A DNA stretch of 64,000 nt, taken from positions 12,707-76,706 of the forward strand of contig CAIUPO010000107.1 in NCBI GenBank assembly GCA_903901055.1. The letters are read 5' to 3'. Origin of the DNA: an uncultured Bacteroidota bacterium. GTDB lineage: Bacteria > Bacteroidota > Bacteroidia > JABEUT01. The number at the start of each line of letters is the position of its first letter. Positions within the stretch are counted from its first letter, which is position 1. Positions 3,914 to 18,878 of this stretch are shown piece after piece. A program made the position numbers and the translations under genes. A model generated the notes under the pieces. That model saw only the letters and a program-made list of their open reading frames with translations, had not been told where the DNA came from and made no database searches.

Positions 3914-5650
3914 ATGAAAGCTGAAAATAAATCTATTGTTTTTAAAAGGAAGTGGGGATTTATCTCTTTGTTATTTTTATTCGCATGCCAAGTATTTGCA
4001 CAAAACAAAGTCGTTAAGGGAACTCAGGACAATCATTCGCAAGTTACCGTAGGTAAACACACTATTCAAATTGTTCATGCAAACAGTGGCGAGTATGATA
4101 AACGACTTGGAGAAGGTGCACAACGACTGATTGGCAATGTAGAGCTTGCAGACGACAGTACTTCATTATTTTCCGACAGTGCATATTCTTATCCCGATAA
4201 TTCATTCAGAGCATTCGGCCATGTACACATGAGCCGCAAAGACACAATGGATCTTTATGGGGATTCATTACACTATAATGGAGTCACACGCATTGCAGAA
4301 ATTTATGGCAAAGAAATTCGTTGCCTAAGGAAGAGAATGACATTAACAACTAAACACCTTAGATACGACATTGGCGTTCACATGGTAAACTATTGGGATG
4401 GCGGAACAATTGTTGACAGCAACAATACGCTTACAAGCATGCTGGGTATTTACAATACAAAACTGAAAATGTGTTTTTTTAAGGAGCATGTTGTTCTTGT
4501 CAATCCGAAGTATGTTATCCGCTGCGATACCATGATGTATGCGCCCGACAAGCGTACTGCTTTTTTTATTGGACCTACACGCATTACAAGCAAAGACAAT
4601 TTTATGTATTGTGAAAAAGGATATTACAATACAGCTAAGAATTATTGCCAGTTCTGGCAAAATCCGTATATCAAAAATAAGAAGGGCGACAGCCTGAGAG
4701 GGGAGCAGATATATTACAACAGGAACCTGGATTACGGGCAAATACTTGATAATGTTGCACTGGTGGATACTACTGATAATATTATCCTGAAGGGTGATTA
4801 TGCTGAATACGACGGTAAGTCTGAAACTATGCTTGCAACCTGTAAAGCTTTGTTGTTGCAGGTTTACAACAAAGATACCCTGCATCTGCATGGAGATACT
4901 TTATATGGGAAAAATATTTCGATGACTGACACCAATAAGAAAGGGAAGCCGAAACTCATGCTGGCTTTTCATCATGTAAAGTTTTTCAAAAAGGATTTGC
5001 AGGGTAAATGTGATTCACTAACATACGATGAACAAGATTCTATAATGCGGATGTTTTACAATCCTATTATTTGGTCGGATGTGAACCAGCTTACGGCAGA
5101 TACAATGCGCCTGCACATGCGGAACAAAAAGATGGATGTACTCGATATGCGTAACCATTCATTTATTGCATCAAAAGATACACTGGCAGGGAAAATTGTT
5201 GAAGAGGATTCGGCAATTACTGCTTCAACTAAAAAGGATTCACTGGCAAAGGACAGTTCTAAAACCCATCATGACTCTTTGTTGGTTCATAAAAATATTC
5301 ATGGTAGCGATACTATGCAATTCAACCAAATTAAGGGCCGCAATATGAAAGGATATTTTAAAGACAATAAGATTTACAAAGTACATGTGATGGGTAATGC
5401 TCAGACTATTTACTATGTTTATTCAGATAATAACACTAGTATAATTGGCGCTAACAGAGCCGATTGCAGCAACATGATTATTTACATAGTTGACAATAAA
5501 GTTAAAAGCCTTACATTTTTAGATAAGCCCGATGCTACTTTGTTCCCTATGAAAGAGGTGAAGCAGGCGGAATTTCTGCTTGGCGGATTTCAATGGCATG
5601 GTAAGGAAAGGCCGACAACCATTGCCGATATTTTCAGAATAGACAATTAA
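3914..5650 (+). CDS. OstA-like (LptA-fold) N-terminal domain protein, secreted
   Basis: 578 aa with a signal peptide and repeated G-D-x-hydrophobic beta-strand pattern, like Bacteroidota OstA-like_N proteins. Confidence 0.45.
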   Translation: MKAENKSIVFKRKWGFISLLFLFACQVFAQNKVVKGTQDNHSQVTVGKHTIQIVHANSGEYDKRLGEGAQRLIGNVELADDSTSLFSDSAYSYPDNSFRAFGHVHMSRKDTMDLYGDSLHYNGVTRIAEIYGKEIRCLRKRMTLTTKHLRYDIGVHMVNYWDGGTIVDSNNTLTSMLGIYNTKLKMCFFKEHVVLVNPKYVIRCDTMMYAPDKRTAFFIGPTRITSKDNFMYCEKGYYNTAKNYCQFWQNPYIKNKKGDSLRGEQIYYNRNLDYGQILDNVALVDTTDNIILKGDYAEYDGKSETMLATCKALLLQVYNKDTLHLHGDTLYGKNISMTDTNKKGKPKLMLAFHHVKFFKKDLQGKCDSLTYDEQDSIMRMFYNPIIWSDVNQLTADTMRLHMRNKKMDVLDMRNHSFIASKDTLAGKIVEEDSAITASTKKDSLAKDSSKTHHDSLLVHKNIHGSDTMQFNQIKGRNMKGYFKDNKIYKVHVMGNAQTIYYVYSDNNTSIIGANRADCSNMIIYIVDNKVKSLTFLDKPDATLFPMKEVKQAEFLLGGFQWHGKERPTTIADIFRIDN

Positions 5651-9608: not shown

Positions 9609-10299
9609 AAGGTTTCTTTGCAATAATACCATCACCTTCAACAGTATAATATTCTGTGTGGAGGCTGTTACGCAGTGAAATATACTCGCGGTAAAGAGCG
9701 TTATAAGCAATACGCGCGTCCAATGTTTCATCATATCGTCCGGTAAGGCCAATGAGCATTTCCATTATTTCCCTCAGTGCATGATTGCTGCTATCGCAAG
9801 CCGTGAGATAATCCATTAATTGACGGTCTTCTGCATACTTTATCACCAATGGATTTGCAGGCCGTGAAATCATCATCCTCACTCCAACTTTTGCCGCAAC
9901 ATCTAAATCTAAAATATCGTCAAAAACAAAAAGTACTTCATCGGGTTGAAGGCTGTATTTCTTACATACATGCTCAAGAGCAGTGCTTTTATGTTTGATT
10001 TTATAATATACAAAATCCATGTGTTCCCTGTCGGAAAACGAGTGTGATGCGGAATTCCTTTCTCCGGTAATAATTCCGAAAATAGGCATCGAGCCCTTAC
10101 GCTGGTAGTGATTGAAGCGGAGCATATTTATGCCCATGGCATCAATCTCATTAAAGAGGCTGGTGTTGCGTTCGTCTTTTTGGCCGTTATTAAAAACTCC
10201 ATCCCAGTCGAAAATATAGGCTTTTACTTTGTCGAGTTTAGCCAGTATCTTCGCGGGCGGGATAAGGAATTTTCCTTTAAATAATTTTTCTATTTCCAT
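9607..10299 (-). CDS. HAD-superfamily phosphatase, KdsC (Kdo-8-phosphate phosphatase)-like
   Basis: DWDGV motif I and FDDILD motif of YrbI/KdsC-type HAD enzymes, with extra terminal extensions. It overlaps the upstream KdsD-like gene by one codon. Confidence 0.55.
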   Translation of the reverse strand: MEIEKLFKGKFLIPPAKILAKLDKVKAYIFDWDGVFNNGQKDERNTSLFNEIDAMGINMLRFNHYQRKGSMPIFGIITGERNSASHSFSDREHMDFVYYKIKHKSTALEHVCKKYSLQPDEVLFVFDDILDLDVAAKVGVRMMISRPANPLVIKYAEDRQLMDYLTACDSSNHALREIMEMLIGLTGRYDETLDARIAYNALYREYISLRNSLHTEYYTVEGDGIIAKKP

Positions 10300-11312
10300 T
10301 AGTCGTTTTTCAGGTCTTGTATATCCAACATACCAATAGGCTTGCCTCCATCAGTAACCATAATAGTATCTACATTTGATTTTTTGAATAAAGCAGCAGC
10401 CTCATTCAAAATAACGTTGGCATCAATACTTATAGGTGCTTTATATTCCAGTTCTTTCAGCTTTTTATTGAGGATGCTTTCTCCATCTTTTTGCAAATGC
10501 CTGCGTAAATCACCATCGGTAAATACTCCCATTACGCTGCCATCACCTTTGGTTACAATAACCGTACCGAAACCATATTCGGTCATTTTAACAATGGCAT
10601 CTTTAACGGTTGTTTCGCTGCTGACAATGGGATTGCCGGGGCGGATTGCTTCTTTCACCTTCACCATCATCATGCGTGTATCGCGGAAAAACTGCTCGGT
10701 TCCAACTTGAGTAAAATTATTTTCGGTGAGTGATTTCAATACTTTTAACGGAACTGTTATGGTATGCACTCCAATATTAATAGCATTGCGCACGTGTTCA
10801 TTATGGCGTACAGAGCTGAACATAATTTTGGTATCGTAATTGTAATAGTTAACCGCATCTACGCATTGTTCAATCAACGTGAGTGCATCATGCCCCTGGT
10901 CCTGCAAACGGCCAACCAACGGACAAACATAAGTTGCACCTGCATGCATTGCCATATAAGCTTGTTGCAGGGTGTATACCAAATGGACATTAACTAACAA
11001 GCCATCGTTGCGCAAAATCTTACATGCACGAACTCCTTCAAGTGATACCGGTATTTTGAAAACCGTTTTCTTTGGGTCCAGTCCTAACTCAAGCTGGCGG
11101 TAGGCTTCCCGTTTAATTTCATCGGCATTGGAACCAAGGGCTTCAATTTGAAGGACCGGCACTATTTTGCTAAGTTTTACAATAGTTCCGTCAATATCAG
11201 TAATACCTTCCTTTTGCATAAAGGTAGGCGTTGTAGTAAGGCCATCGAGGAATCCAAGTTTGAATCCTTCTTCAATTTCCTTCATGTTTGCAGAATCGAG
11301 ATATAGCTCCAT
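10299..11312 (-). CDS. fusion protein: fructose-6-phosphate aldolase/transaldolase (TalC/FSA) domain plus KdsD-type tandem CBS domains
   Basis: N-terminal MELYLDSANMKEIEE...GLTTTPTF, FKIPVS (catalytic Lys region) and YVCPLVGRLQDQG match FSA/TalC. C-terminal GVFTDGDLRR...IGMLDIQDL closely matches the CBS pair of E. coli KdsD (GIFTDGDLRR). Confidence 0.7.
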   Translation of the reverse strand: MELYLDSANMKEIEEGFKLGFLDGLTTTPTFMQKEGITDIDGTIVKLSKIVPVLQIEALGSNADEIKREAYRQLELGLDPKKTVFKIPVSLEGVRACKILRNDGLLVNVHLVYTLQQAYMAMHAGATYVCPLVGRLQDQGHDALTLIEQCVDAVNYYNYDTKIMFSSVRHNEHVRNAINIGVHTITVPLKVLKSLTENNFTQVGTEQFFRDTRMMMVKVKEAIRPGNPIVSSETTVKDAIVKMTEYGFGTVIVTKGDGSVMGVFTDGDLRRHLQKDGESILNKKLKELEYKAPISIDANVILNEAAALFKKSNVDTIMVTDGGKPIGMLDIQDLKND

Positions 11313-11533
11313 AGTGTTAGTTATTTGAGGTGGTAAAGGTAAGAAACCCTATGAAATGTAAAGCTGGTCTCAACTGGAAATAATGTTAAGCGTGAATGGT
11401 GTAAGTTTTCCATAAAGATATGTAACACTTAACGCGCCAAACGGGCTCACCTTTGTGCTATCTAAATCTAATCACAAGTAGTAAAAACAAAGGGAGAAGG
11501 AGTAAGACAAACCCTCTCTATAAACTAACTAAT

Positions 11534-11839
11534 ATGAACGAAAATCAAAAAAGCGAAGATGTTACAAAAACACCGAGCGAAAAAAATAACCCGGGAAATT
11601 CACAACCGAGCAGTTCAACTTCTCAAACTACATCTGTACCCGTTGAAGATGACGAAAAGCGGGAAGGGGATGAATTTATAAGGGAAGGCCACGGGCATGA
11701 TTATGGCACTCCGGTAGCCGGAGAAGATGGTGGAACTGAAGACCAGTCTTCAAATGAACCTAAAAATGAAAGTGAGGAAACAAATAGCAGCAAACCAACA
11801 GAACAAGGAAAAACGCAGGGTGAAAGTTCAACTATCTAA
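11534..11839 (+). CDS. small highly hydrophilic intrinsically disordered protein (copy 1), EGHGHDYGTPVA motif
   Basis: 101 aa rich in S/T/N/Q/E/K with no hydrophobic segment. It ends in STI. Likely start is 11534, parallel to copy 2, rather than the ORF-track start at 11453. Confidence 0.5.
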   Translation: MNENQKSEDVTKTPSEKNNPGNSQPSSSTSQTTSVPVEDDEKREGDEFIREGHGHDYGTPVAGEDGGTEDQSSNEPKNESEETNSSKPTEQGKTQGESSTI

Positions 11840-11865
11840 TATGGTATGTTGACTTCATTCTAATA

Positions 11866-11900
11866 AAAAGTGAGGGGCAGAACTCCTCACTTTATTTTAA
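11866..11900 (+). terminator. rho-independent terminator hairpin
   Basis: AAAAAGTGAGGGGcagaaCTCCTCACTTTATTTT: GC stem plus a T-tract. Confidence 0.55.
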
Positions 11901-11925
11901 TCATAAACAAATAAAAACAGACATT

Positions 11926-12081
11926 ATGGGTAATCTACTTTATTTAATCGCAATAATTTTAATCATAGGCTGGGCATTAGGATTTTTCTTTTTCAGCCTC
12001 GGGGCTTTTGTACACATACTTCTTGTTTTTGCTATAATAGCCATTCTTTTCAGGCTTATCAGGGGAGAGAAGGTTTTATAG
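11926..12081 (+). CDS. lmo0937-family-like 51-aa membrane protein (copy 1)
   Basis: MGNLLYLIAIILIIGWALGFFFFSLGAFVHILLVFAIIAILFRLIRGEKVL: two short hydrophobic helices, typical of this small-protein family. Not in the ORF track because it is under 60 aa. Confidence 0.5.
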   Translation: MGNLLYLIAIILIIGWALGFFFFSLGAFVHILLVFAIIAILFRLIRGEKVL

Positions 12082-12107
12082 GAATCAACGCCTTACTGGT
12101 GACGTAA

Positions 12108-12135
12108 CCACGAAATGAAATTTCGTGGGTTTCGT
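12108..12135 (+). terminator. terminator hairpin after small membrane protein gene
   Basis: CCACGAAAT-gaa-ATTTCGTGG perfect 9-bp stem followed by a T-rich run. Confidence 0.5.
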
Positions 12136-12337
12136 TGTGTATATAAACAACCATATAGAAGTTTAATGCAAAAACTAATTGAAAAAATAGTAAGTGTGAA
12201 GAATACAACATTAAACAAAGGATGTGTAATGGATTCCGGGATAAATGACCCCATTTTTGCAATGTTAGATTTTAGTAGAAATATATAAAAACAACCGGTG
12301 GGGGAGGATTATTCCACATCATAAAAACAACCAAAAA

Positions 12338-12640
12338 ATGAAAGAAAATCAAAAGAACGAACAGGTTTCAAATAACCCAAGTAACTCAAAAAGCCAAACC
12401 AGCCAAAATGGTCAGAGCAATTCTCAAAAGAACAGTTCCGGTTCATCTTCTGAAAAGAAAAATATGCCCCTAACTGCCGAAAAGGAAATTAAAGAAAAGG
12501 GTCATGAGCATGATTACAAAACACCAGTAGCAAGTTCGAACGGCAAAGTTGGAACCCAAACTGAAAAATCAAAAATGCCGGCGGAAAAAAGCCAAGGTTC
12601 AAGCCAGGGAAATACCAAGAATGAAAAATCAACTATCTAA
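12338..12640 (+). CDS. small hydrophilic intrinsically disordered protein (copy 2), KGHEHDYKTPVA motif
   Basis: 100 aa. Paralog of 11534..11839: same composition, the GH.HDY.TPVA motif and a C-terminal KSTI. Confidence 0.5.
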   Translation: MKENQKNEQVSNNPSNSKSQTSQNGQSNSQKNSSGSSSEKKNMPLTAEKEIKEKGHEHDYKTPVASSNGKVGTQTEKSKMPAEKSQGSSQGNTKNEKSTI

Positions 12641-12670
12641 TATGGTATGTTAGTTTCATTCTAATAAAAA

Positions 12671-12700
12671 GTGAGGGGTCATACCCTCACTTTATCTTAA
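12671..12700 (+). terminator. rho-independent terminator hairpin (copy 2)
   Basis: GTGAGGGGtcatACCCTCACTTTATCTT. Near-identical context to 11866..11900. Confidence 0.5.
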
Positions 12701-12725
12701 TCATAAACAAATAAAAACAAACATC

Positions 12726-12881
12726 ATGGGAAACTTACTTTATTTAATCGCCGTTATTTTAGTCATCAGTTGGGCTATAGGATTCTTCGCATATAGCGCT
12801 GGAGGCTTAATACACATACTGCTTATTGTTGCAATAATTGCCGTATTGTTCAGAGTTATTTCCGGAAGGAAAGCAGTTTAA
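12726..12881 (+). CDS. lmo0937-family-like 51-aa membrane protein (copy 2)
   Basis: MGNLLYLIAVILVISWAIGFFAYSAGGLIHILLIVAIIAVLFRVISGRKAV. Paralog of 11926..12081. Confidence 0.5.
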   Translation: MGNLLYLIAVILVISWAIGFFAYSAGGLIHILLIVAIIAVLFRVISGRKAV

Positions 12882-12946
12882 TTAGCAAAGGTTAAAAGGT
12901 TATTTGCGTGTGAGGTGCAACTTCGGGTAAAAGAGTTATTCTCAAG

Positions 12947-13309
12947 TTAAGCTATTATTGCCAATAGAATTGATAATAATACATAAAAGATTACGCAAAT
13001 AATCCCAATAATCTTATGTGTTTTAGTTTCGTTAATATATTTCAATTCAATAGTCTTGAATCTCTTTTTATATAAAAAATAGAACAAATTGAACCCAACA
13101 GCAGTGGAAAATGTACTAATCATAACTGTTAGTGATTTCCTGTAATCTGGAACAACAAAAATTCCAGTAAAAATCCAATAAACATTAGAAGCATTAAACA
13201 TTAAAGGAGTTCCATATAAGATACATGCATACCAAGCACTTTCATCTTCTTCATAAGACAGGTGCATTTGTTTGTACAACCGATAAAATGTATATTCGTA
13301 AGGATTCAT
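12947..13309 (-). CDS. hypothetical membrane protein
   Basis: 120 aa with several hydrophobic helices. No recognisable motif. Confidence 0.3.
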   Translation of the reverse strand: MNPYEYTFYRLYKQMHLSYEEDESAWYACILYGTPLMFNASNVYWIFTGIFVVPDYRKSLTVMISTFSTAVGFNLFYFLYKKRFKTIELKYINETKTHKIIGIICVIFYVLLSILLAIIA

Positions 13310-13324
13310 TAATTTGGTAAGCGC

Positions 13325-14161
13325 TTACCTCCCCCTATACTTCACCTCCGTATTATGTATCTCAATCAAGGGTTCTAAAAAAGCTTTCAGGTCATAAACA
13401 GATAGCTGGCTCGATGCATCGCACAAAGCTTTGGAGGGTTCGGGATGGGTTTCAATAAAAATGCCATCTACTCCTGAGGCCACGCCGGCGCGGCTTATAA
13501 CGGGCAGGAATTCTCTTGCTCCGCCTTTTGCATCGGCGCTGGGTATGCCATATTTGCGAATGGAGTGGGTAATATCAAACACTACCGGGTAGCCAATTTG
13601 GTTCAAATGGTAAAGGCTTCGAGGGTCAACTACTAAATCATTATATCCAAAAGTGTATCCTCTTTCTGTTAGGATGATGTTATCATTTCCGCTATCCACA
13701 CATTTTTTAACGGGGTGCTTCATATTTTCAGGTGCAAGGAATTGTCCGTGTTTAATATTAATAACACGCCCTGTTTTTGCCGCGGCAACCATCAAGCTGC
13801 TTTGCATGCATAGGTATGCAGGTATTTGCAATACATCACAAACTTCGGCTGCAGGTGCCGCCTGGTCAGGGTAATGAATATCCGTTAGAATTGAGAAACC
13901 GAATTCCTTTTTTACTTTAGCAAGCATTGCCAAGCCTTTTTCAAGTCCCGGTCCATCGTAATATTTCAGATCGCTGCGGTTATCTTTCAAAAACGAGGAC
14001 TTATATATGATAGGGATATTTAATTGTTCGCTTACTTCTTTCAGTTTTTCAGCGGTCCTGAACATGATGGATTCTTCTTCAATAACACAAGGGCCCGATA
14101 TTAGGAATAACTGGTCTGCGCCACATTCAATATTTCCGACTTTTATTTTCTTTTTGCTCAT
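13325..14161 (-). CDS. kdsA: 3-deoxy-8-phosphooctulonate (Kdo-8-P) synthase
   Basis: 278 aa. DAHC/KDO8P synthase family hallmarks (...GPCVIEEE..., KSSFLKDNRSDL, HSIRKYG). Confidence 0.85.
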   Translation of the reverse strand: MSKKKIKVGNIECGADQLFLISGPCVIEEESIMFRTAEKLKEVSEQLNIPIIYKSSFLKDNRSDLKYYDGPGLEKGLAMLAKVKKEFGFSILTDIHYPDQAAPAAEVCDVLQIPAYLCMQSSLMVAAAKTGRVINIKHGQFLAPENMKHPVKKCVDSGNDNIILTERGYTFGYNDLVVDPRSLYHLNQIGYPVVFDITHSIRKYGIPSADAKGGAREFLPVISRAGVASGVDGIFIETHPEPSKALCDASSQLSVYDLKAFLEPLIEIHNTEVKYRGR

Positions 14162-14356: not shown

Positions 14357-14929
14357 TTGGAAGTAGACATACAGGAATTAAAAGCCGGAAATGAGCAGGC
14401 CTTTCGTTTGCTTATTGACGCGTACGGAAAGGCTATTTTCAATCTTTGCCTGGGCATGATTCCTAACAGGGATGATGCCGAGGAACTAACGCAGGACGTA
14501 TTTATTGAAGCTTATAAGCACATTGCTTCTTTCCGAGAGGGTTCCCATATAAAGACCTGGCTCTTCCGCATTGCCTTAAACAAATGCTACGACCACATAA
14601 AATTTAGTAAGCGGAAAAAGAGGTATGGTATTATGCAACCCTTATTAGATAAGGACGATAACCCGATAGAATTACCTTCCAATTTTCAGCATCCGGGCAT
14701 AACCCTTGAAAACAAAGACCATGCCAAAGCACTATATGGTGCCCTGAACGCTTTGCCCGAAAACCAGCACACGGCTTTTACTATGTATGAAATGCAGGGA
14801 ATGGATTATAAACAAATTGCAGATACTATGTCTGTAAGTGTTTCTGCTGTTGAGTCTTTACTATCCCGTGCAAGGGCAGGTTTACGTAAAAAGCTACAGG
14901 ATTACTATACACATAACGCAAGTTCTTAA
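14357..14929 (+). CDS. ECF sigma factor
   Basis: 190 aa. Sigma-70 r2 (ELTQDVFIEAYK) and r4 (MQGMDYKQIADTMSVSVSAVESLLSRAR). Confidence 0.8.
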   Translation: MEVDIQELKAGNEQAFRLLIDAYGKAIFNLCLGMIPNRDDAEELTQDVFIEAYKHIASFREGSHIKTWLFRIALNKCYDHIKFSKRKKRYGIMQPLLDKDDNPIELPSNFQHPGITLENKDHAKALYGALNALPENQHTAFTMYEMQGMDYKQIADTMSVSVSAVESLLSRARAGLRKKLQDYYTHNASS

Positions 14930-14955
14930 ATAATCAATCGTCTAAATAATCGAAT

Positions 14956-15312
14956 ATGGACAGGAAACAGGATATAGAAGACAATATAAATGCGGCTTTG
15001 CAGGCTGCAGGCAAAATTCAACCTTCGGAATTGCCTAATGGTTTTTCTGAGCGGGTTGCAAACAAGTTACATGCTCAAAATAAGGTAAGGATGCTATATA
15101 ACATAGCGCCCCTTTTGCGTGTGGCTGCGGTATTTGTTCTAATCATTATTAATGTTTTCACCTTGCGCCTTTTTACCGAAGGGCAACCAAAACAAGCAAC
15201 AGCCCAATACGTTACTATAAAAGATTTTGTGAATGAATACCAGATTAATGATGGCAGTGAAGATTTGTTAACTACTAATACATCACCTTATGAACAGCCC
15301 AAAACTCACTAA
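14956..15312 (+). CDS. putative anti-sigma factor / membrane protein
   Basis: 118 aa with one TM helix. It lies directly downstream of the ECF sigma gene. Confidence 0.4.
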   Translation: MDRKQDIEDNINAALQAAGKIQPSELPNGFSERVANKLHAQNKVRMLYNIAPLLRVAAVFVLIIINVFTLRLFTEGQPKQATAQYVTIKDFVNEYQINDGSEDLLTTNTSPYEQPKTH

Positions 15313-15550
15313 TGTTCTATTAATAGCATTAATTGCAATTAATGGCCTTTTCATTGCCGGATGGGCATTTTCGTCCATGCACCACAGGCACGAGCGGGCA
15401 TTTGCCATGCATTACAGATTTCATGGAAGGTTTCATGACAGCAGATCCTTCCATCATTGTTTCGGAGCGTGCTGTGGTAACCATGGCGGATACCGCAGCG
15501 GCTTCCGGAATTATCATCATTCAGGGATGAACCAAAGTAATATCAATTAA
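15290..15550 (+). CDS. small membrane-anchored histidine/cysteine-rich protein
   Basis: 86 aa. N-terminal TM helix, then HHRHERAFAMHYRFHGRFHDSRSFHHCFGACCGNHGGYRSGFRNYHH. The N-terminus resembles that of the next gene. Confidence 0.4.
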   Translation: MNSPKLTNVLLIALIAINGLFIAGWAFSSMHHRHERAFAMHYRFHGRFHDSRSFHHCFGACCGNHGGYRSGFRNYHHSGMNQSNIN

Positions 15551-15631
15551 TATTCCATTTATAAGACATTCTTAATTTTGCCTGAATTTTAGATAGGCTA
15601 CACCTAAAAAAATGTTTTCTGACCATTAATT

Positions 15632-16153
15632 ATGAATACTAAGATAACAAACATTTTGCTCATTATTTTGCTCGTTTTCAACGTGGCATTTATTGGCAAA
15701 TGGTGGATGGGCCACCGAAATGTCCATCATCCTAAAACAGAAGCGCCTGCCGAAACCACTACTATTTTGCACGACAAGGACAAGGGAGAAATGTACCTTG
15801 TTAAAACACTTGGGTTTGATACCGCCCAGCAAAAAAAACTGGACAAAATATTGCAGACACATTTTACGTTTCTGGATAAAACAATGAATGTATATATACG
15901 GAACCAGAATAATCTTTTTAATGCCGTTAAAGAAGGTAAAGACAGTACTTATGCGTCACAGTGTTCAGATTCACTGGGTGTATTAAAGGTTGCTATGGAG
16001 AAGGAATTATATATGCACTTCAATAGTATTAAGGGCATTTGCAATAGTTCGCAATTAAAGCAATTTGACGAACTGATTGATAACATGGAAAAGGAGTTTG
16101 TGCTACATCATAATTTCCACCATAGTGCAAACGCGAATAAAGATTCTATTTAA
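15632..16153 (+). CDS. periplasmic Spy/CpxP-like (LTxxQ-type) helical protein
   Basis: 173 aa. N-terminal TM/signal, then DTAQQKKLDKILQTHF-type helical repeats. Confidence 0.4.
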   Translation: MNTKITNILLIILLVFNVAFIGKWWMGHRNVHHPKTEAPAETTTILHDKDKGEMYLVKTLGFDTAQQKKLDKILQTHFTFLDKTMNVYIRNQNNLFNAVKEGKDSTYASQCSDSLGVLKVAMEKELYMHFNSIKGICNSSQLKQFDELIDNMEKEFVLHHNFHHSANANKDSI

Positions 16154-16169
16154 ATAAAGATAATTTAAG

Positions 16170-18878
16170 ATGTTAAAGAAATTTTCCCCAATCATTATTT
16201 TATTGTGTATAGTACAAACCACTTTTGCCCAAATGTGGGGCGGAGGTGGAATGGGTGGTGGCATGAAAGGCGCCAAAGCAAAAGTAGGGCATTTTTATGG
16301 CAAGGTGGTTGATAGTTTAACCGGCAAATCAGTACCGTTTGCACCTGTTCAGTTGTCGGGCCAGCAATGGGATTCTGTTTCAAAAGCCATGAAAACAGTG
16401 GTTATTCAAGGATTGCTTACCGGAGATAACGGCGAATTCAGTTTTGAAAAACTGGCGGTGATGGGTACCTATACCATTGAAATTAACGCAATGGGATATA
16501 AACCTAAATCAGTTGTGACTTTTTTTGATATGAGTAAACTGATGAAAGCCGGACAAAAAATGCAATCGCAAAGCAGTGGTGATATGCCTAACATGTCGAA
16601 TGTGGAAAGTTTGCTGAACGCAATTGATAAGGATTTGGGAAATATTAAAGTGTCGTCCATAGCAAACCAGTTAAAGGATGTTACCGTGAATGGCAGTTCC
16701 CCGCCAATGGAACTTAAACTTGACAAACGTGTTTTTGATGTAAGTAAAAGCCTTACCACAGAGGGCGGTACAGCCGAAGATGTATTGAAAACGATCCCTT
16801 CGGTAAATGTGGATATTGATGGGAATGTTAAAATGCGCAATGCTTCGCCGACTATATATGTTGATGGGATGCCGACAACTTTAACCATTGACCAGATTCC
16901 GGCAGGGCAGATAGATAAGATAGAAGTGATTACTAATCCTTCAGCAAAGTATGATGCGTCTGCGGGCACGGGAGGTATCATCAATATTATTCTGAAACAT
17001 AAAAACACATTGGGTTATAATGGCTCACTGCGTTTGGGTGCCGATGAATATGGAAAAGTAAATGGCGGTTTTGATTTTAACGTTAGGCAAGGAAAAATAA
17101 ATGTGTTTCTCGATTTGCATGTACACCAGATAAAGCATAAAATGTATGGAAGTGAATATAAAGACACTGTTGCAAATCAGTCAAGCACTTCTCCTAAAAT
17201 TATCGACTACCAGAACGATACCAATACCATGGAGGGCTATTTTGCTTTTGCCAGATTGGGTTTCGACTACTTTATAGATAACCGCAATACATTAACTGTT
17301 TCCGGAATGCTAGTACGCGGAGATTTTAACTCAACCGATTTATTGCACACAAATAATGTTTATACTGATACACTTTCTTTGCCCAAGTTTATAAATGAGA
17401 ACTCTGCCTCCAGCAGGGTTTTTACGAGCCCCGGAGTTTCATTACTATACAAACACCTATTCCCGAAGGAAGATGAAAATATTACTGCAAGTGTAACCGC
17501 TAACCAAGGCTCTTCATCGGGAACCGGAAATTTTGACTTCCTGAATTACGACTTTAATAATGTGCTTTTATCATCGATAAACCAGATGCAGCAAAGCGGT
17601 GGCACAAACAAGTACTATGTGGGGAAACTGGATTATACCGACCCTTTATCTAAAAAAATAAAACTGGAAGCTGGTGTACAGTATACCTACAGCCAGGTAA
17701 ATTCGTACAGCAATTTCTATCTGAACGATATTTTCTTTAACGATGAAAGCAATACATACCTGTTCAATCAGTATGTGTATGCGGGTTATTTTACCTTCAG
17801 CGAAGACCTGAACAGCCGCTTAAGTTATCAGATAGCACTGCGTATGGAGCAATCAGTATATAACGGTACTGAAACCTCCGGTAGCACTTCAACGCCTTTG
17901 AACAATCAAAATTTGTTGAAACCTTTTCCGGGTGCATTTGTTACCTATCACCTTACCGAGAAAAGCGATTTGCAATTCAGTTACACTACCCATATTACAC
18001 GCCCTTCGTTCGCACAGTTGGTTGTGAAAAATAATTCGAACCCTGAGAATATTCAGGTGCCCAACCCTAACCTGAAACCCGCGTATCAGAACTCTTTCGA
18101 GTTTAATTATATGAATACGTTTAACAAACGTAATTCATTATTGCTGTCAGCATATTACAAAATCACGTACGATATTATTTCTACCCAAACAATCTCTTCG
18201 CAATACGATCCGATTTTAAAATTGCAGATTGACAGCACCACGTATGCTAATGCTAACTATGGCTACCAGGAAGGTGCAGAGGCAACCCTGCAAAACTCTA
18301 TTGGTAACTGGCTCGACATTACAACCAACTTTAATCTCTTTGAATCGGGTGTAAATGCTACCAACCTGAATATTCCAGATACTGCAAAAAAGTTCCTGAG
18401 CTATTTTGCCAAACTGAATCTAACTTTCAAACTACCTAAGAATTTCACTATACAGTTGAACGGAAGTTATCTTTCCAAGTCAAAAATTTCACCTGAAAGT
18501 GGCGGCGGTGGTGGCGGACGATGGGGTGGTGGCGGAGGCTATGGTGGAGGAATTTCTCCTTCTACCAGCGGATATATAGACCCAAATTATTCGTTGGATG
18601 TAGCTATTAAAAAAGAATTTTTCAAAAACAAAGCTTCAGTTACCTTGAATTGCAGGGATATTTTTGCAACTGCAAAAAATGGCTCTGAAGTTGTTGCAAC
18701 CTCGCTCGAAGGAGCTCCACTCTATTTCCAAACTACCAGCCGCACAAGGGATGTAAGGTTCTTCTCAATCAATCTTAGCTACCGCTTCGGACAAATGGAT
18801 GTTTCTATTTTCAAACATAAAAATAATAATATAGACGCCGGACCTGATATGGGTGGCGGTGGCGATAGCGGCAACTAG
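16170..18878 (+). CDS. outer-membrane beta-barrel family protein with N-terminal carboxypeptidase-regulatory-like domain (TonB-dependent-receptor-like)
   Basis: 902 aa. Signal peptide, GKVVDSLTGKSVPFAPVQL (CarbopepD_reg-like), and a long C-terminal region with beta-barrel character ending ...LSYRF. Unusual poly-Gly inserts (GGGGMGGGM; GGGGGGRWGGGGGYGGG; GGGGDSGN). Confidence 0.6.
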   Translation: MLKKFSPIIILLCIVQTTFAQMWGGGGMGGGMKGAKAKVGHFYGKVVDSLTGKSVPFAPVQLSGQQWDSVSKAMKTVVIQGLLTGDNGEFSFEKLAVMGTYTIEINAMGYKPKSVVTFFDMSKLMKAGQKMQSQSSGDMPNMSNVESLLNAIDKDLGNIKVSSIANQLKDVTVNGSSPPMELKLDKRVFDVSKSLTTEGGTAEDVLKTIPSVNVDIDGNVKMRNASPTIYVDGMPTTLTIDQIPAGQIDKIEVITNPSAKYDASAGTGGIINIILKHKNTLGYNGSLRLGADEYGKVNGGFDFNVRQGKINVFLDLHVHQIKHKMYGSEYKDTVANQSSTSPKIIDYQNDTNTMEGYFAFARLGFDYFIDNRNTLTVSGMLVRGDFNSTDLLHTNNVYTDTLSLPKFINENSASSRVFTSPGVSLLYKHLFPKEDENITASVTANQGSSSGTGNFDFLNYDFNNVLLSSINQMQQSGGTNKYYVGKLDYTDPLSKKIKLEAGVQYTYSQVNSYSNFYLNDIFFNDESNTYLFNQYVYAGYFTFSEDLNSRLSYQIALRMEQSVYNGTETSGSTSTPLNNQNLLKPFPGAFVTYHLTEKSDLQFSYTTHITRPSFAQLVVKNNSNPENIQVPNPNLKPAYQNSFEFNYMNTFNKRNSLLLSAYYKITYDIISTQTISSQYDPILKLQIDSTTYANANYGYQEGAEATLQNSIGNWLDITTNFNLFESGVNATNLNIPDTAKKFLSYFAKLNLTFKLPKNFTIQLNGSYLSKSKISPESGGGGGGRWGGGGGYGGGISPSTSGYIDPNYSLDVAIKKEFFKNKASVTLNCRDIFATAKNGSEVVATSLEGAPLYFQTTSRTRDVRFFSINLSYRFGQMDVSIFKHKNNNIDAGPDMGGGGDSGN

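What the first reader, a model, noticed from the sequence alone, without database searches (positions are those of the whole stretch)
11534..12881. Tandemly duplicated module: disordered hydrophilic protein, terminator hairpin, 51-aa lmo0937-like membrane protein
Two consecutive copies about 800 bp apart, of a gene for a hydrophilin-like protein of about 100 aa, a strong terminator hairpin, and a tiny 2-helix membrane protein gene. The hydrophilin-like protein is S/T/N/Q/E/K-rich, has no hydrophobic segment, and carries the conserved motifs GH(G/E)HDY.TPVA and C-terminal (S/K)STI. The region from the stop of the large gene through the hairpin (GTGAGGGG...CCCTCAC) to the small gene start is nearly identical in the two copies at the nucleotide level, while the disordered proteins have diverged. 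The small ORFs are under 60 aa and so are missing from the ORF track. The hairpin between the two genes could be a terminator or an attenuator controlling read-through into the small membrane protein gene. A stress/desiccation-type module is plausible but the function is unknown.
Basis: seen in the sequence. Interest (0 to 1): 0.6.

Follow-up and report, generated by a model that had tools for sequence, protein, structure and literature searches.

The report
Duplicated disordered-protein plus tiny-membrane-protein stress operon
An uncultured soil or peat Bacteroidia bacterium carries two old tandem copies of a small two-gene unit (a new, fully disordered water-loving protein followed by a known-family 51-residue membrane protein), separated by a highly conserved pair of RNA hairpins and driven by a conserved promoter; it is probably a stress operon, real but of modest novelty.

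Summary
Window 11391-12128 and 12195-12881 hold two copies (period 804 bp) of the same unit: promoter-like motif, 101/100-aa disordered hydrophilic ORF, two hairpins, 51-aa ORF.

- **Small proteins:** both are clear lmo0937/DUF5670 members (59-63 bits against a cutoff of 30).
- **Large proteins:** they hit no Pfam, NCBIfam, PADLOC, PHROG or PDB entry. Their family is tiny: 37 clusters among 5.8 billion proteins, all environmental Bacteroidia.
- **Pairing:** the DUF5670 gene lies directly downstream in 16 of 17 evaluable loci.
- **Coding:** both ORFs are coding (dN/dS 0.16-0.50 and 0.04-0.27).
- **Age:** the duplication is old (dS about 1.5) and is seen on 15 contigs, so it is not an assembly artefact.
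- **Intergenic element:** it stays 90% identical between the copies and 72-94% across species, so it is under selection. Hairpin A holds the stop codon in its loop and has three compensatory pairs. Hairpin B looks like an intrinsic terminator.
- **Promoter:** a fixed-spacing motif (TGTGAAT/TGTAA/TGTAA/TTTG) precedes every module. It also precedes DUF5670, CsbD, OMP, DUF4142 and WXXGXW genes in other Bacteroidota.

Best reading: a stress-type bicistronic operon with an internal leaky terminator or stability element. The function is inferred, not shown.

The parts
11391..11455 (+). Promoter-like motif, copy 1: (C)GTGAAT-nn-TGTAA-N16-TGTAA(C)-N23-cAccTTTG. The last box resembles the Bacteroidota -7 element. 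It lies 78 nt upstream of the large ORF's ATG.
   Evidence: Gapless 18-site alignment A7. Sequence-only model R1 scores 59 bits here. In the 64-kb window R1 hits only the two modules.
11534..11839 (+). Large ORF 1: 101-aa acidic (net charge -14), intrinsically disordered hydrophilic protein with the invariant core HxH(D/N/E)YxxP.
   Evidence: dN/dS is 0.26-0.50 against orthologues L017 and L018. No family hit.
11818..11861 (+). Hairpin A, copy 1. The 5' arm is the last codons of the large ORF, the stop codon UAA sits in the apical loop, and the 3' arm is non-coding.
   Evidence: RNAfold gives -14.7 kcal/mol. In 12 sequences 91.7% of cells are paired and 3 pairs have compensatory changes.
11867..11893 (+). 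Hairpin B, copy 1: AAAGUGAGGGG-loop-CUCCUCACUUU followed by AUUUUAAU. It looks like an intrinsic terminator.
   Evidence: Terminator scan. Energy -15.2 kcal/mol. The pattern is unique to the modules.
11926..12081 (+). Small ORF 1: 51-aa membrane protein of the lmo0937/DUF5670 family, with two hydrophobic helices.
   Evidence: NF033488 58.8 bits (cutoff 30) and PF18919 51.6 bits. dN/dS is 0.12-0.15 against orthologues.
12108..12128 (+). Terminator-like hairpin that closes unit 1 (CCACGAAAUGAAAUUUCGUGG followed by GUUUCGUUGU).
   Evidence: Terminator scan.
12195..12259 (+). Promoter-like motif, copy 2, with the same fixed spacing and again 78 nt upstream of the ATG.
   Evidence: R1 scores 51 bits. 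Alignment A7.
12338..12640 (+). Large ORF 2: 100-aa basic (net charge +5) disordered hydrophilic paralogue. Its closest relative is the single copy in MAG locus L003 (63% identity).
   Evidence: dN/dS is 0.41 against L003.
12619..12662 (+). Hairpin A, copy 2, with the stop codon in the apical loop.
   Evidence: Energy -11.8 kcal/mol. Alignment A10.
12668..12693 (+). Hairpin B, copy 2: AAAGUGAGGGG-UCAUA-CCCUCACUUU followed by AUCUUAAU.
   Evidence: Energy -16.6 kcal/mol. Pattern match at 12671-12690.
12726..12881 (+). Small ORF 2: 51-aa lmo0937/DUF5670 membrane protein of the 'GFFAYSAGG' type that is common across Bacteroidota.
   Evidence: NF033488 62.6 bits and PF18919 56.1 bits. It is 75-90% identical to more than 100 homologous clusters.

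Best explanation
Each copy is a two-gene, stress-type operon. An activator-dependent promoter drives transcription of a cytoplasmic, intrinsically disordered hydrophilin-like protein. That promoter has three TGTRAA boxes at fixed helical spacing upstream of a weak Bacteroidota -7 TTTG box.

The large ORF ends inside hairpin A, with its stop codon in the loop. About 5 nt further on comes hairpin B, a terminator-type stem with a U-rich tail. Most transcripts probably end, or are stabilised, at A+B. That would give much disordered protein. A fraction reads through into the lmo0937/DUF5670 gene, giving little membrane protein.

The two copies are ancient paralogues, one acidic and one basic, that have been kept side by side.

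Shown here:
- the anatomy of the unit;
- family membership of the small protein;
- coding status of both ORFs;
- disorder of the large protein;
- conservation of the pairing;
- purifying selection on the intergenic element and the promoter motif.

Inferred, not shown:
- induction by stress;
- co-transcription of the two genes;
- partial termination at hairpin B;
- any physical or functional link between the two proteins.
For: **Small protein.** Family membership is clear.

**Large protein.**
- GRAVY is -1.74 and -1.75, glycine 9.9% and 7.0%, and no 9-residue window is hydrophobic.
- AlphaFold2 gives pLDDT 57 and pTM 0.10 with no secondary structure.
- dN/dS is 0.16-0.50 with third-position excess, and indels are in-frame.

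**Pairing.** The DUF5670 gene lies directly downstream in 16 of 17 evaluable loci of the family.

**Co-transcription.**
- Four loci have no hairpin and only a 15-42 nt spacer.
- I saw no TTTG-type -7 box in the 30-43 nt after hairpin B.
- R1 does not hit the spacer.

**Selection on the intergenic element.** dS between the window copies is about 1.5 in both flanking genes, yet the intergenic region is 90% identical. It is 72-94% identical across species.

**Hairpin A.** Three pairs carry compensatory changes. One is a Thr-to-Ile codon change (ACT to ATT) matched by G to A in the non-coding arm in L027.

**Hairpin B.**
- Its energy is -15 to -17 kcal/mol and it has a U-rich tail.
- It is retained with a G-C to A-U swap in the distant locus L006.

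**Stress link.**
- lmo0937 is 54-fold sigma-B dependent in Listeria (PMC2813243; also PMC7690807).
- DUF5670 genes in Flavobacterium, Saprospiraceae and other Bacteroidota loci sit beside YtxH, CsbD or OMP genes.
- The same promoter motif precedes those genes.
Against: - There is no expression data for this uncultured lineage, so read-through, termination efficiency and stress induction are all untested.
- The stems of hairpin B are invariant rather than covarying within the close set. A DNA-level or sequence-specific constraint therefore cannot be separated from RNA structure.
- The near-invariance of the 23-nt core of hairpin A and of the GUGAGG/CCUCAC stem exceeds what a plain terminator needs. 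This suggests an additional, unidentified function.
- One locus (L023) has the large gene without a small gene.
- Elsewhere in Bacteroidota, DUF5670 genes stand without this partner, so the two proteins need not act together.
- The AlphaFold model used only a 2-sequence alignment.
Confidence: 0.55

Rival explanations
1. The invariant two-hairpin element is more than a terminator. It could be a specific cis-regulatory RNA that a protein or the terminating ribosome recognises. Or it could be the body of a 3'-UTR-derived small RNA released from the large gene's transcript, with the 23-nt invariant core as binding site or seed.
For: - The 23-nt core UCAACUAUCUAAUAUGGUAUGUU is invariant in 11 of 12 sequences, apart from a synonymous A/G at the Ser codon (TCA/TCG). 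L027 carries one compensated change.
- The stem sequence GUGAGG/CCUCAC is kept even in L006, where the flanking proteins are only about 30-37% identical.
- Sequence identity far exceeds that of synonymous sites.
- 3'-derived sRNAs are documented in Bacteroides (PMC7366714).
Against: - No Rfam family matches at gathering threshold, and only chance-level hits appear at E<=10.
- No target or binding partner was identified.
- Four family loci work without any hairpin.
Confidence: 0.2
2. These are two independent genes. Hairpin B is an efficient terminator of the large gene, and the small gene has its own unrecognised promoter. The adjacency would then reflect only shared regulation or chance synteny.
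For: - Hairpin B is stable and has a U-rich tail.
- In other Bacteroidota, DUF5670 genes are first genes with their own R1-type promoter (L010 and L012).
Against: - No R1 hit and no TAnnTTTG-like box lies between hairpin B and the small gene's ATG (sequence).
- The spacer is only 30-43 nt of A-rich sequence.
- In the hairpin-less loci the genes are 15-42 nt apart.
Confidence: 0.15
3. This is a translation-coupled attenuator. A ribosome finishing the large ORF melts hairpin A, which frees its 3' arm to pair with the 5' arm of hairpin B (an antiterminator). The small gene would then be transcribed only when the large ORF is translated.
For: The architecture fits on paper: the stop codon is in the loop of A, and A and B are 5 nt apart. 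The 3' arm of A (UUUCAUUCU) is partly complementary to AAAGUGAGG. A -4.6 kcal/mol alternative helix forms in copy 1.
Against: - The alternative helix is weak or absent: -1.5 kcal/mol in L003, and not formed in copy 2 or L020.
- Hairpin B (-15 to -17 kcal/mol) still forms in every masked fold.
Confidence: 0.05
4. This is a toxin-type small hydrophobic peptide (type I toxin-antitoxin or defence-like module) with an upstream regulatory ORF.
For: The small protein is about 50 aa and very hydrophobic, as many type I toxins are.
Against: - There are no PADLOC or meaningful PHROG hits.
- The family is very large and evolves under strong purifying selection (dN/dS 0.04-0.27).
- It sits in chromosomal stress-gene clusters and in stable synteny next to kdsA.
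- No antisense transcript was looked for, and none was seen.
Confidence: 0.03

Closest known systems
lmo0937 family membrane protein (NCBIfam NF033488; Pfam PF18919 / DUF5670)
   Same: Both 51-aa ORFs match the full 43-position profile at about twice the curated cutoff. They have two hydrophobic helices and are 63-90% identical to thousands of Bacteroidota homologues. The type gene is a sigma-B general-stress regulon member in Listeria (PMC2813243, PMC7690807).
   Different: No biochemical function is known for the family. Here the gene lies downstream of a lineage-specific disordered-protein gene and a conserved two-hairpin element. Neither was seen in the other DUF5670 contexts sampled.
Bacterial hydrophilins and small general-stress proteins (E. 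coli YciG/KGG, YjbJ/CsbD, Bacillus YtxH and GsiB, LEA-like proteins)
   Same: Extreme hydrophilicity (GRAVY about -1.75), glycine above 6%, no hydrophobic segment, predicted disorder and about 100 aa. In other Bacteroidota, DUF5670 genes sit beside YtxH and CsbD genes.
   Different: There is no sequence relationship: no hit to KGG, CsbD, YtxH or any other Pfam or NCBIfam model at E<=1. The family has its own invariant core, HxH(D/N/E)YxxP. It has only 37 clusters, all in environmental Bacteroidia. Hydrophilin is a compositional class, not a homologous family.
Intra-operon (intercistronic) terminator or stabiliser hairpins that set unequal expression of neighbouring cistrons (for example the Rhodobacter puf and E. 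coli malEFG intercistronic stem-loops; from general knowledge)
   Same: A stable stem-loop with a U-rich tail lies between two co-oriented genes separated by about 86 nt, with no detectable internal promoter.
   Different: The element has two hairpins, and the first embeds the stop codon in its loop. Its primary sequence is almost invariant across species, which goes beyond what those examples require. Its effect on transcript ends is untested.
Bacteroidota sigma-A promoters (-33 TTTG / -7 TAnnTTTG) and the stress-associated non-canonical motif PM2 of B. thetaiotaomicron (PMC7366714)
   Same: The motif ends in a conserved nAnnTTTG box at the expected distance from the gene, and it precedes stress-type genes.
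   Different: The -33 position is occupied by TGTAA(Y). Two further boxes (TGTGAAT and TGTAA) lie 21 and about 31 nt further upstream at invariant spacing. I could not establish whether this equals PM2 or any other described motif, because the papers' text gives no sequence.

Membership tests
lmo0937 family / DUF5670 | Score above the curated cutoff of NF033488 (30 bits) and PF18919 (23.5 bits) over the whole profile | tested here: met
   58.8 and 62.6 bits (NF033488, profile positions 1-43 of 43). 51.6 and 56.1 bits (PF18919).
lmo0937 family / DUF5670 | About 45-55 aa with two transmembrane helices | tested here: met
   51 aa. Hydrophobic stretches at about residues 4-23 and 27-45, separated by S(L/A)G, read from the sequence. 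GRAVY of sampled homologues is +1.7 to +2.1.
lmo0937 family / DUF5670 | Conserved as a real gene in related genomes | tested here: met
   More than 4,000 homologous clusters. dN/dS is 0.04-0.27.
lmo0937 family / DUF5670 | Stress (sigma-B-type) induced expression, as for the type gene | not testable with these tools
   Only literature on Listeria is available (PMC2813243, PMC7690807). There is no expression data for this lineage.
Hydrophilins (compositional class; criteria recalled from Garay-Arroyo et al. 2000) | Glycine above 6% and mean hydrophilicity index above 1 | tested here: met
   Glycine 9.9% and 7.0%; GRAVY -1.74 and -1.75. Two homologues fall below 6% glycine (L003 at 5.7%, L006 at 3.0%).
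Hydrophilins (compositional class) | Accumulation under water deficit | not testable with these tools
   No expression data.
CsbD (PF05532), KGG/YciG (PF10685), YtxH (PF12732) | Match to the family HMM | tested here: not met
   No Pfam or NCBIfam family at E<=1 for either large protein.
Intrinsic (Rho-independent) terminator | G+C-rich stem-loop directly followed by a U-rich tract | tested here: met
   Copy 1 has 11 pairs with tail AUUUUAAU. For copy 2 the scan flagged the inner 5 pairs, and RNAfold gives 10 pairs at -16.6 kcal/mol. The U tract is interrupted (UUUAUCUU).
Intrinsic (Rho-independent) terminator | Transcript 3' ends at the U tract in vivo | not testable with these tools
   Needs Term-seq or 3' RACE.
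Alternative-pairing transcription attenuator | A competing antiterminator helix of comparable stability | tested here: not met
   The alternative helix is -1.5 to -4.6 kcal/mol or absent, against -15 to -17 kcal/mol for hairpin B.
Known RNA families (Rfam 15) | Match at the gathering score | tested here: not met
   0 matches in the whole window. Only sub-threshold chance hits over 11300-13000.
Type I toxin-antitoxin or defence systems | Match to known toxin or defence models; an overlapping antisense RNA | tested here: not met
   No PADLOC hits and no meaningful PHROG hits. An antisense RNA was not tested.

The most novel reading that the evidence does not exclude
Two linked readings remain open.

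1. The near-invariant two-hairpin element (stop codon presented in the loop of hairpin A, then the GUGAGG/CCUCAC hairpin) is an undescribed cis-regulatory RNA or 3'-UTR-derived sRNA. It would couple termination of the disordered-protein ORF to expression of the DUF5670 membrane protein.

2. The module belongs to an undescribed Bacteroidota-wide general-stress-like regulon. Its signature is the fixed-spacing promoter TGTGAAT-nn-TGTAA-N16-TGTAA-N23-nAnnTTTG. Its members would include DUF5670, CsbD, YtxH-cluster, OMP, DUF4142, WXXGXW and SodCu-like genes, under a regulator still to be identified.
Probability: 0.25. Interest if true: 0.65.

Novelty: new variant of a known kind. Interest (0 to 1): 0.4.

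Why it matters
- **A handle on an uncharacterised family.** lmo0937/DUF5670 is one of the commonest unannotated small membrane proteins in bacteria, and nothing is known about its function. A lineage in which it is fixed downstream of a dedicated disordered partner gives a concrete way in. The two-hairpin element and the shared promoter suggest a partner protein to test, a regulatory element to mutate, and co-regulated genes to compare.

- **A possible general stress regulon.** No general stress response comparable to sigma-B or RpoS came up in my literature searches for Bacteroidota. The promoter motif, if it is not already described, could help define such a regulon.

- **A new family of disordered proteins.** The large protein adds a small family of bacterial disordered proteins with a conserved His-x-His-Asp-Tyr core. 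It comes in acidic and basic paralogue forms.

- **A limit on the claim.** The practical importance is modest unless experiments show a phenotype.

Tried and rejected
- **Rfam.** The whole window at gathering threshold gave nothing. The region at E<=10 gave only chance-level hits.

- **Word-indexed homologue search with one large protein.** It found only the query itself, because the sequence is low-complexity. The exhaustive profile search found 8 representatives. A 16-sequence profile found 37 clusters.

- **Genome-collection scan.** It gave one related MAG.

- **First metagenome scan.** It was repeated with A5.

- **Conserved 3-codon mini-ORF (AUG GUA UGU stop) just after the large gene's stop.**
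  - It ends in TGA, TAG or TAA in different loci but in TAC in L004.
  - The variable bases are the ones that pair, or fail to pair, with codon -4 in hairpin A.
  - The pattern is therefore explained by the hairpin, and I do not claim a mini-ORF.

- **Translation-coupled antiterminator.** Rejected on energetics.

- **Promoter for the small gene in the spacer.** No R1 match. I saw no TAnnTTTG-like box on reading the sequence.

- **ECF-type reading of the TGTAAC box.** Rejected because no conserved CGT-type -10 element lies 16-17 nt downstream, while the TTTG box at N25 is invariant.

- **Defence, phage and solved-structure libraries.** No hits.

- **Literature on the promoter motif.** The searches did not settle whether it is known.

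- **Recent gene conversion as the cause of intergenic identity.** Unlikely, because synonymous sites on both sides are saturated and the same conservation holds between species.
Full report
**1. What is there**

The window holds two head-to-tail copies of one unit, 804 bp apart, on the + strand.

| Part | Copy 1 | Copy 2 |
|---|---|---|
| Promoter-like motif | 11391-11455 | 12195-12259 |
| Large ORF | 11534-11839 (101 aa) | 12338-12640 (100 aa) |
| Hairpin A | 11818-11861 | 12619-12662 |
| Hairpin B | 11867-11893 | 12668-12693 |
| Small ORF | 11926-12081 (51 aa) | 12726-12881 (51 aa) |
| Closing terminator-like hairpin | 12108-12128 | none found |

- The large proteins are 37% identical (E 5e-10). 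The small ones are 67% identical (E 5e-23).
- The stop-to-start spacer is 90% identical between the copies.
- The pattern GTGAGG..CCTCAC occurs only at these two places in 64 kb. None is expected by chance.
- Copy 2's large protein is carried by 15 contigs from several samples. Every place shown has the 101-aa copy-1 large gene upstream of it. The duplication is therefore not an assembly artefact.
- Gene callers usually miss the copy-1 small ORF. They call a 57-aa ORF (12115-12288) instead, which overlaps the copy-2 promoter and is probably spurious.

**2. The small protein**

- Both 51-aa ORFs are full-length members of the lmo0937 family. They score 58.8 and 62.6 bits against NF033488 (cutoff 30) and 51.6 and 56.1 bits against PF18919/DUF5670.
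- The family is very large, with more than 4,000 clusters retrieved. Members are highly conserved: the listed best hits, where named, are Bacteroidota, at 73-90% identity.
- dN/dS among module orthologues is 0.04-0.27. These are real genes.

**3. The large protein**

- There is no Pfam, NCBIfam, PADLOC, PHROG or PDB match.
- Composition is extreme:
  - GRAVY is about -1.75.
  - S+T+N+Q make up 40-47% of residues.
  - Hydrophobic residues make up 9-10%.
  - No 9-residue window has positive hydropathy worth noting.
  - Glycine is 9.9% and 7.0%.
- These values meet the hydrophilin composition criteria. I recalled those criteria from the literature and did not re-derive them.
- AlphaFold2 gives pLDDT 57 and pTM 0.10 with no secondary structure. 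The caveat is a 2-sequence alignment.
- It is nevertheless a coding gene:
  - dN/dS is 0.16-0.50.
  - Differences are most frequent at third codon positions.
  - Length differences are in-frame.
  - The core is invariant: M1, H53, H55, Y57 and P60, that is HxH(D/N/E)YxxP.
- The family is tiny. The profile search found 8 representatives among 1.84 billion and 37 clusters among 5.8 billion. All are 'hypothetical'. The one named source is a Bacteroidia MAG, and all come from environmental metagenomes.
- Two subfamilies exist. Copy 1 belongs to the EGHGHDYxxPVAGEDGGTEDQS type (acidic, net charge -14) and is closest to L017 and L018. Copy 2 belongs to the KGHEHDYKTPVASSNGK type (basic, net charge +5) and is closest to the single copy in MAG locus L003.

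**4. Age of the duplication**

- Synonymous divergence between the two window copies is about 1.5 in both genes.
- Each copy has closer relatives in other genomes than in its own.
- The duplication therefore predates several species splits. Single-copy relatives (L003, L004) sit at the same syntenic place next to kdsA.

**5. Is the pairing conserved?**

I collected 18 distinct loci of the large-protein family:
- the two window copies;
- L003-L006;
- L017-L024;
- L026, L027, L029 and L031.

A DUF5670 gene starts 15-97 nt downstream in 16 of the 17 loci that can be judged. L018 is cut by the contig end, and L023 lacks the small gene.

Most loci share synteny: a divergent WXXGXW-repeat gene, then the module, then kdsA, then an ECF sigma gene.

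In contrast, DUF5670 genes elsewhere in Bacteroidota do not have this partner. This holds for Flavobacterium, Saprospiraceae, Bacteroidales MAGs and others. There they lie in clusters with some combination of OMP beta-barrel, coiled-coil lipoprotein, YtxH, a holin-like membrane protein and CsbD genes, and are sometimes tandemly duplicated themselves.

The partnership is thus lineage-specific. It is built on a widespread small gene that keeps company with classic general-stress proteins.

**6. The intergenic element**

Twelve loci carry two hairpins.

*Hairpin A*
- Its 5' arm is the last five to seven codons of the large ORF, and its 3' arm is non-coding. The stop codon sits in the apical loop (CUAAUAU).
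- The 23-nt core UCAACUAUCUAAUAUGGUAUGUU is invariant except for a synonymous A/G at the Ser codon and one compensated change in L027.
- On a gapless 12-sequence alignment, 91.7% of cells pair, against 22-52% when the partners are slid.
- Three pairs show changes on both sides. The covariation score is reached by 2 of 500 shuffles.
- The clearest case is L027. There the Thr codon ACT became ATT (Ile), and the partner G became A.
- Codon -4 (AGT, AAT, AAA or AGA) also tracks the opposite bases: G15-C42, A-U or G-U, with T16-A41 where the codon ends in T.
- The conserved C-terminal 'STI' therefore co-occurs with hairpin A. It is absent where the hairpin is absent (L005 ends in PSI, L023 and L024 in TKS and TKN, L006 in QKA). 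It may be an RNA-level constraint as much as a protein-level one.

*Hairpin B*
- The sequence is AAAGUGAGGGG-loop-CCCUCACUUU plus a U-rich tail, at -15 to -17 kcal/mol.
- It has variable loops but invariant stems. It shows no covariation in the close set.
- The distant L006 keeps it, with a longer loop and one G-C to A-U exchange.

*Conservation of the whole spacer*
- The spacer is 72-94% identical between loci whose flanking synonymous sites are largely saturated. The element is therefore under purifying selection.
- Four loci have no hairpins and spacers of only 15-42 nt.
- No known RNA family matches.

**7. How it probably works**

- I saw no Bacteroidota -7 box (TAnnTTTG-like) between hairpin B and the small gene. 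The promoter model described below does not match there either. Some loci lack the hairpins altogether. The two genes are therefore most likely co-transcribed.
- Hairpin B looks like an intrinsic terminator. Inside an operon it would act as a leaky terminator and/or a 3' stabiliser, giving a high ratio of large to small product.
- A classical alternative-pairing attenuator is not supported. With the ribosome-covered bases masked, hairpin B still forms. The only alternative helix is -1.5 to -4.6 kcal/mol, or absent.
- The degree of primary-sequence conservation suggests an additional sequence-specific role (a protein, the ribosome or an sRNA) that I cannot identify.

**8. The promoter motif (new lead)**

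- Where the large gene heads the unit, a fixed-spacing motif lies 38-84 nt upstream of it. In L021 and L022 it lies upstream of a DUF4142 gene that precedes the large gene.
- The motif is TGTGAAT-nn-TGTAA-N16-TGTAA(Y)-N23-nAnnTTTG. The 18 sites align without a single gap.
- The last box is a weak version of the Bacteroidota -7 element (CA instead of TA).
- The third TGTAA box occupies the -33 position. The boxes are 21 and about 10 nt apart, so they lie on one face of the helix.
- This looks like an activator-dependent sigma-A promoter. That reading is an inference.
- A sequence-only model (R1) hits only the two modules in the whole window, at 59 and 51 bits.
- R1 finds four further module loci that were not used to build it, at 36-60 bits.
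- R1 or the regex also finds the motif in front of:
  - divergent WXXGXW genes;
  - a SodCu-like gene and a 519-aa gene in L006;
  - the Flavobacterium OMP-DUF5670x2-YtxH cluster;
  - a Bacteroidales DUF5670 gene.
- It finds the motif more weakly in front of the Saprospiraceae OMP and CsbD genes and the L010 DUF5670 gene (E 0.001-0.005).
- I could not determine from the papers held whether this motif is already described, for example as PM2 of B. thetaiotaomicron.

**9. Link to stress**

- lmo0937 is one of the most sigma-B-dependent genes in L. monocytogenes. It is 54-fold dependent (PMC2813243), reduced in sigB mutants (PMC7690807), and bound by the sRNA Rli51 (PMC11394854).
- Three further observations fit the stress reading:
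  - DUF5670 genes neighbour YtxH and CsbD genes.
  - The promoter motif is shared among these genes.
  - The partner protein has hydrophilin-like composition.
- Together these make a stress, stationary-phase or desiccation role the best available reading. It remains inference.

**10. Verdict**

The finding is a genuine, conserved, anciently duplicated two-gene operon. It is made of a known-family small membrane protein and a new, narrowly distributed disordered protein. It also has two conserved non-coding features: the two-hairpin intercistronic element and the tripartite promoter. These are the most interesting parts.

It is a new variant of a known kind rather than something categorically new. 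I put interest at about 0.4.

Noticed in passing
window 11391-11455 and 12195-12259; also L003-L031 (for example L006:416-505, 2719-2808, 2898-2987; L007:1646-1735; L012:2349-2438; L015:1003-1090 and 4526-4609): A fixed-spacing promoter-like motif, TGTGAAT-nn-TGTAA-N16-TGTAA(Y)-N23-nAnnTTTG, aligns without gaps in 18 sites. Besides the modules it precedes DUF5670, CsbD, OMP beta-barrel, DUF4142, WXXGXW and SodCu-like genes in several Bacteroidota lineages. It may mark a stress regulon. I could not establish whether it is already described.
   Followed up: partly
window 11534-11839 versus 12338-12640: The two disordered paralogues have opposite net charge (-14 and +5). The difference is kept in their respective orthologues: L017 at -18 and L018 at -8, against L003 at +5. 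This suggests subfunctionalisation or an acidic/basic pair.
   Followed up: partly
window 12115-12288 (+): A 57-aa ORF lies between the two units, and public gene callers annotate it on several contigs. It overlaps the terminator of unit 1 and the promoter motif of unit 2, so it is probably spurious. On most of those contigs the real copy-1 small ORF is not called.
   Followed up: partly
window 11485-11533 and 12289-12337 (5' UTRs); L003, L004, L018: A weak hairpin (-5 to -9 kcal/mol) with a GGAG-rich 5' arm sits at the same place, about 20-45 nt before the ATG, in the roughly 75-nt leaders of five loci. Its sequence differs between loci. Loci with shorter leaders lack it.
   Followed up: partly
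window 10299-11312 (-): A 337-aa protein combines a transaldolase/FSA domain with a C-terminal CBS pair. It lies close to kdsA (13325-14161, -). Both genes also flank the module in MAG locus L003, and the window's own species shows the same order on other contigs. It is an unusual fusion near a KDO-pathway gene.
   Followed up: no
L003:2653-3681 (-); L004, L018, L021, L023-L031 upstream of the module: Secreted WXXGXW/YXWGXW-repeat proteins with long G/Q/N-rich tails are encoded divergently from the module in most relatives. In six loci (L018, L019, L021, L026, L027, L029) a mirror-image copy of the promoter motif lies on the opposite strand upstream of the module. The window itself lacks this gene at that position.
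   Followed up: partly
L005:1-306; L020:43-363; L021:846-1409; L022:881-1459: In four relatives a protein of about 190 aa heads the operon directly upstream of the large gene. By eye it resembles DUF4142, but no family scan was run on it. In L021 and L022 the promoter motif has moved in front of it.
   Followed up: partly
L007-L009:2501-2849: Flavobacterium genomes carry two tandem DUF5670 genes 39-44 nt apart, followed by a YtxH gene and a gene for a holin-like membrane protein. Tandem duplication of this small gene therefore recurs independently of the disordered partner.
   Followed up: no
window 14357-18878 (+): A cluster of an ECF sigma factor, two short ORFs (118 and 173 aa) and a 902-aa TonB-dependent receptor lies downstream of kdsA. 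It is syntenic in L001, L025/L026 and L029.
   Followed up: no
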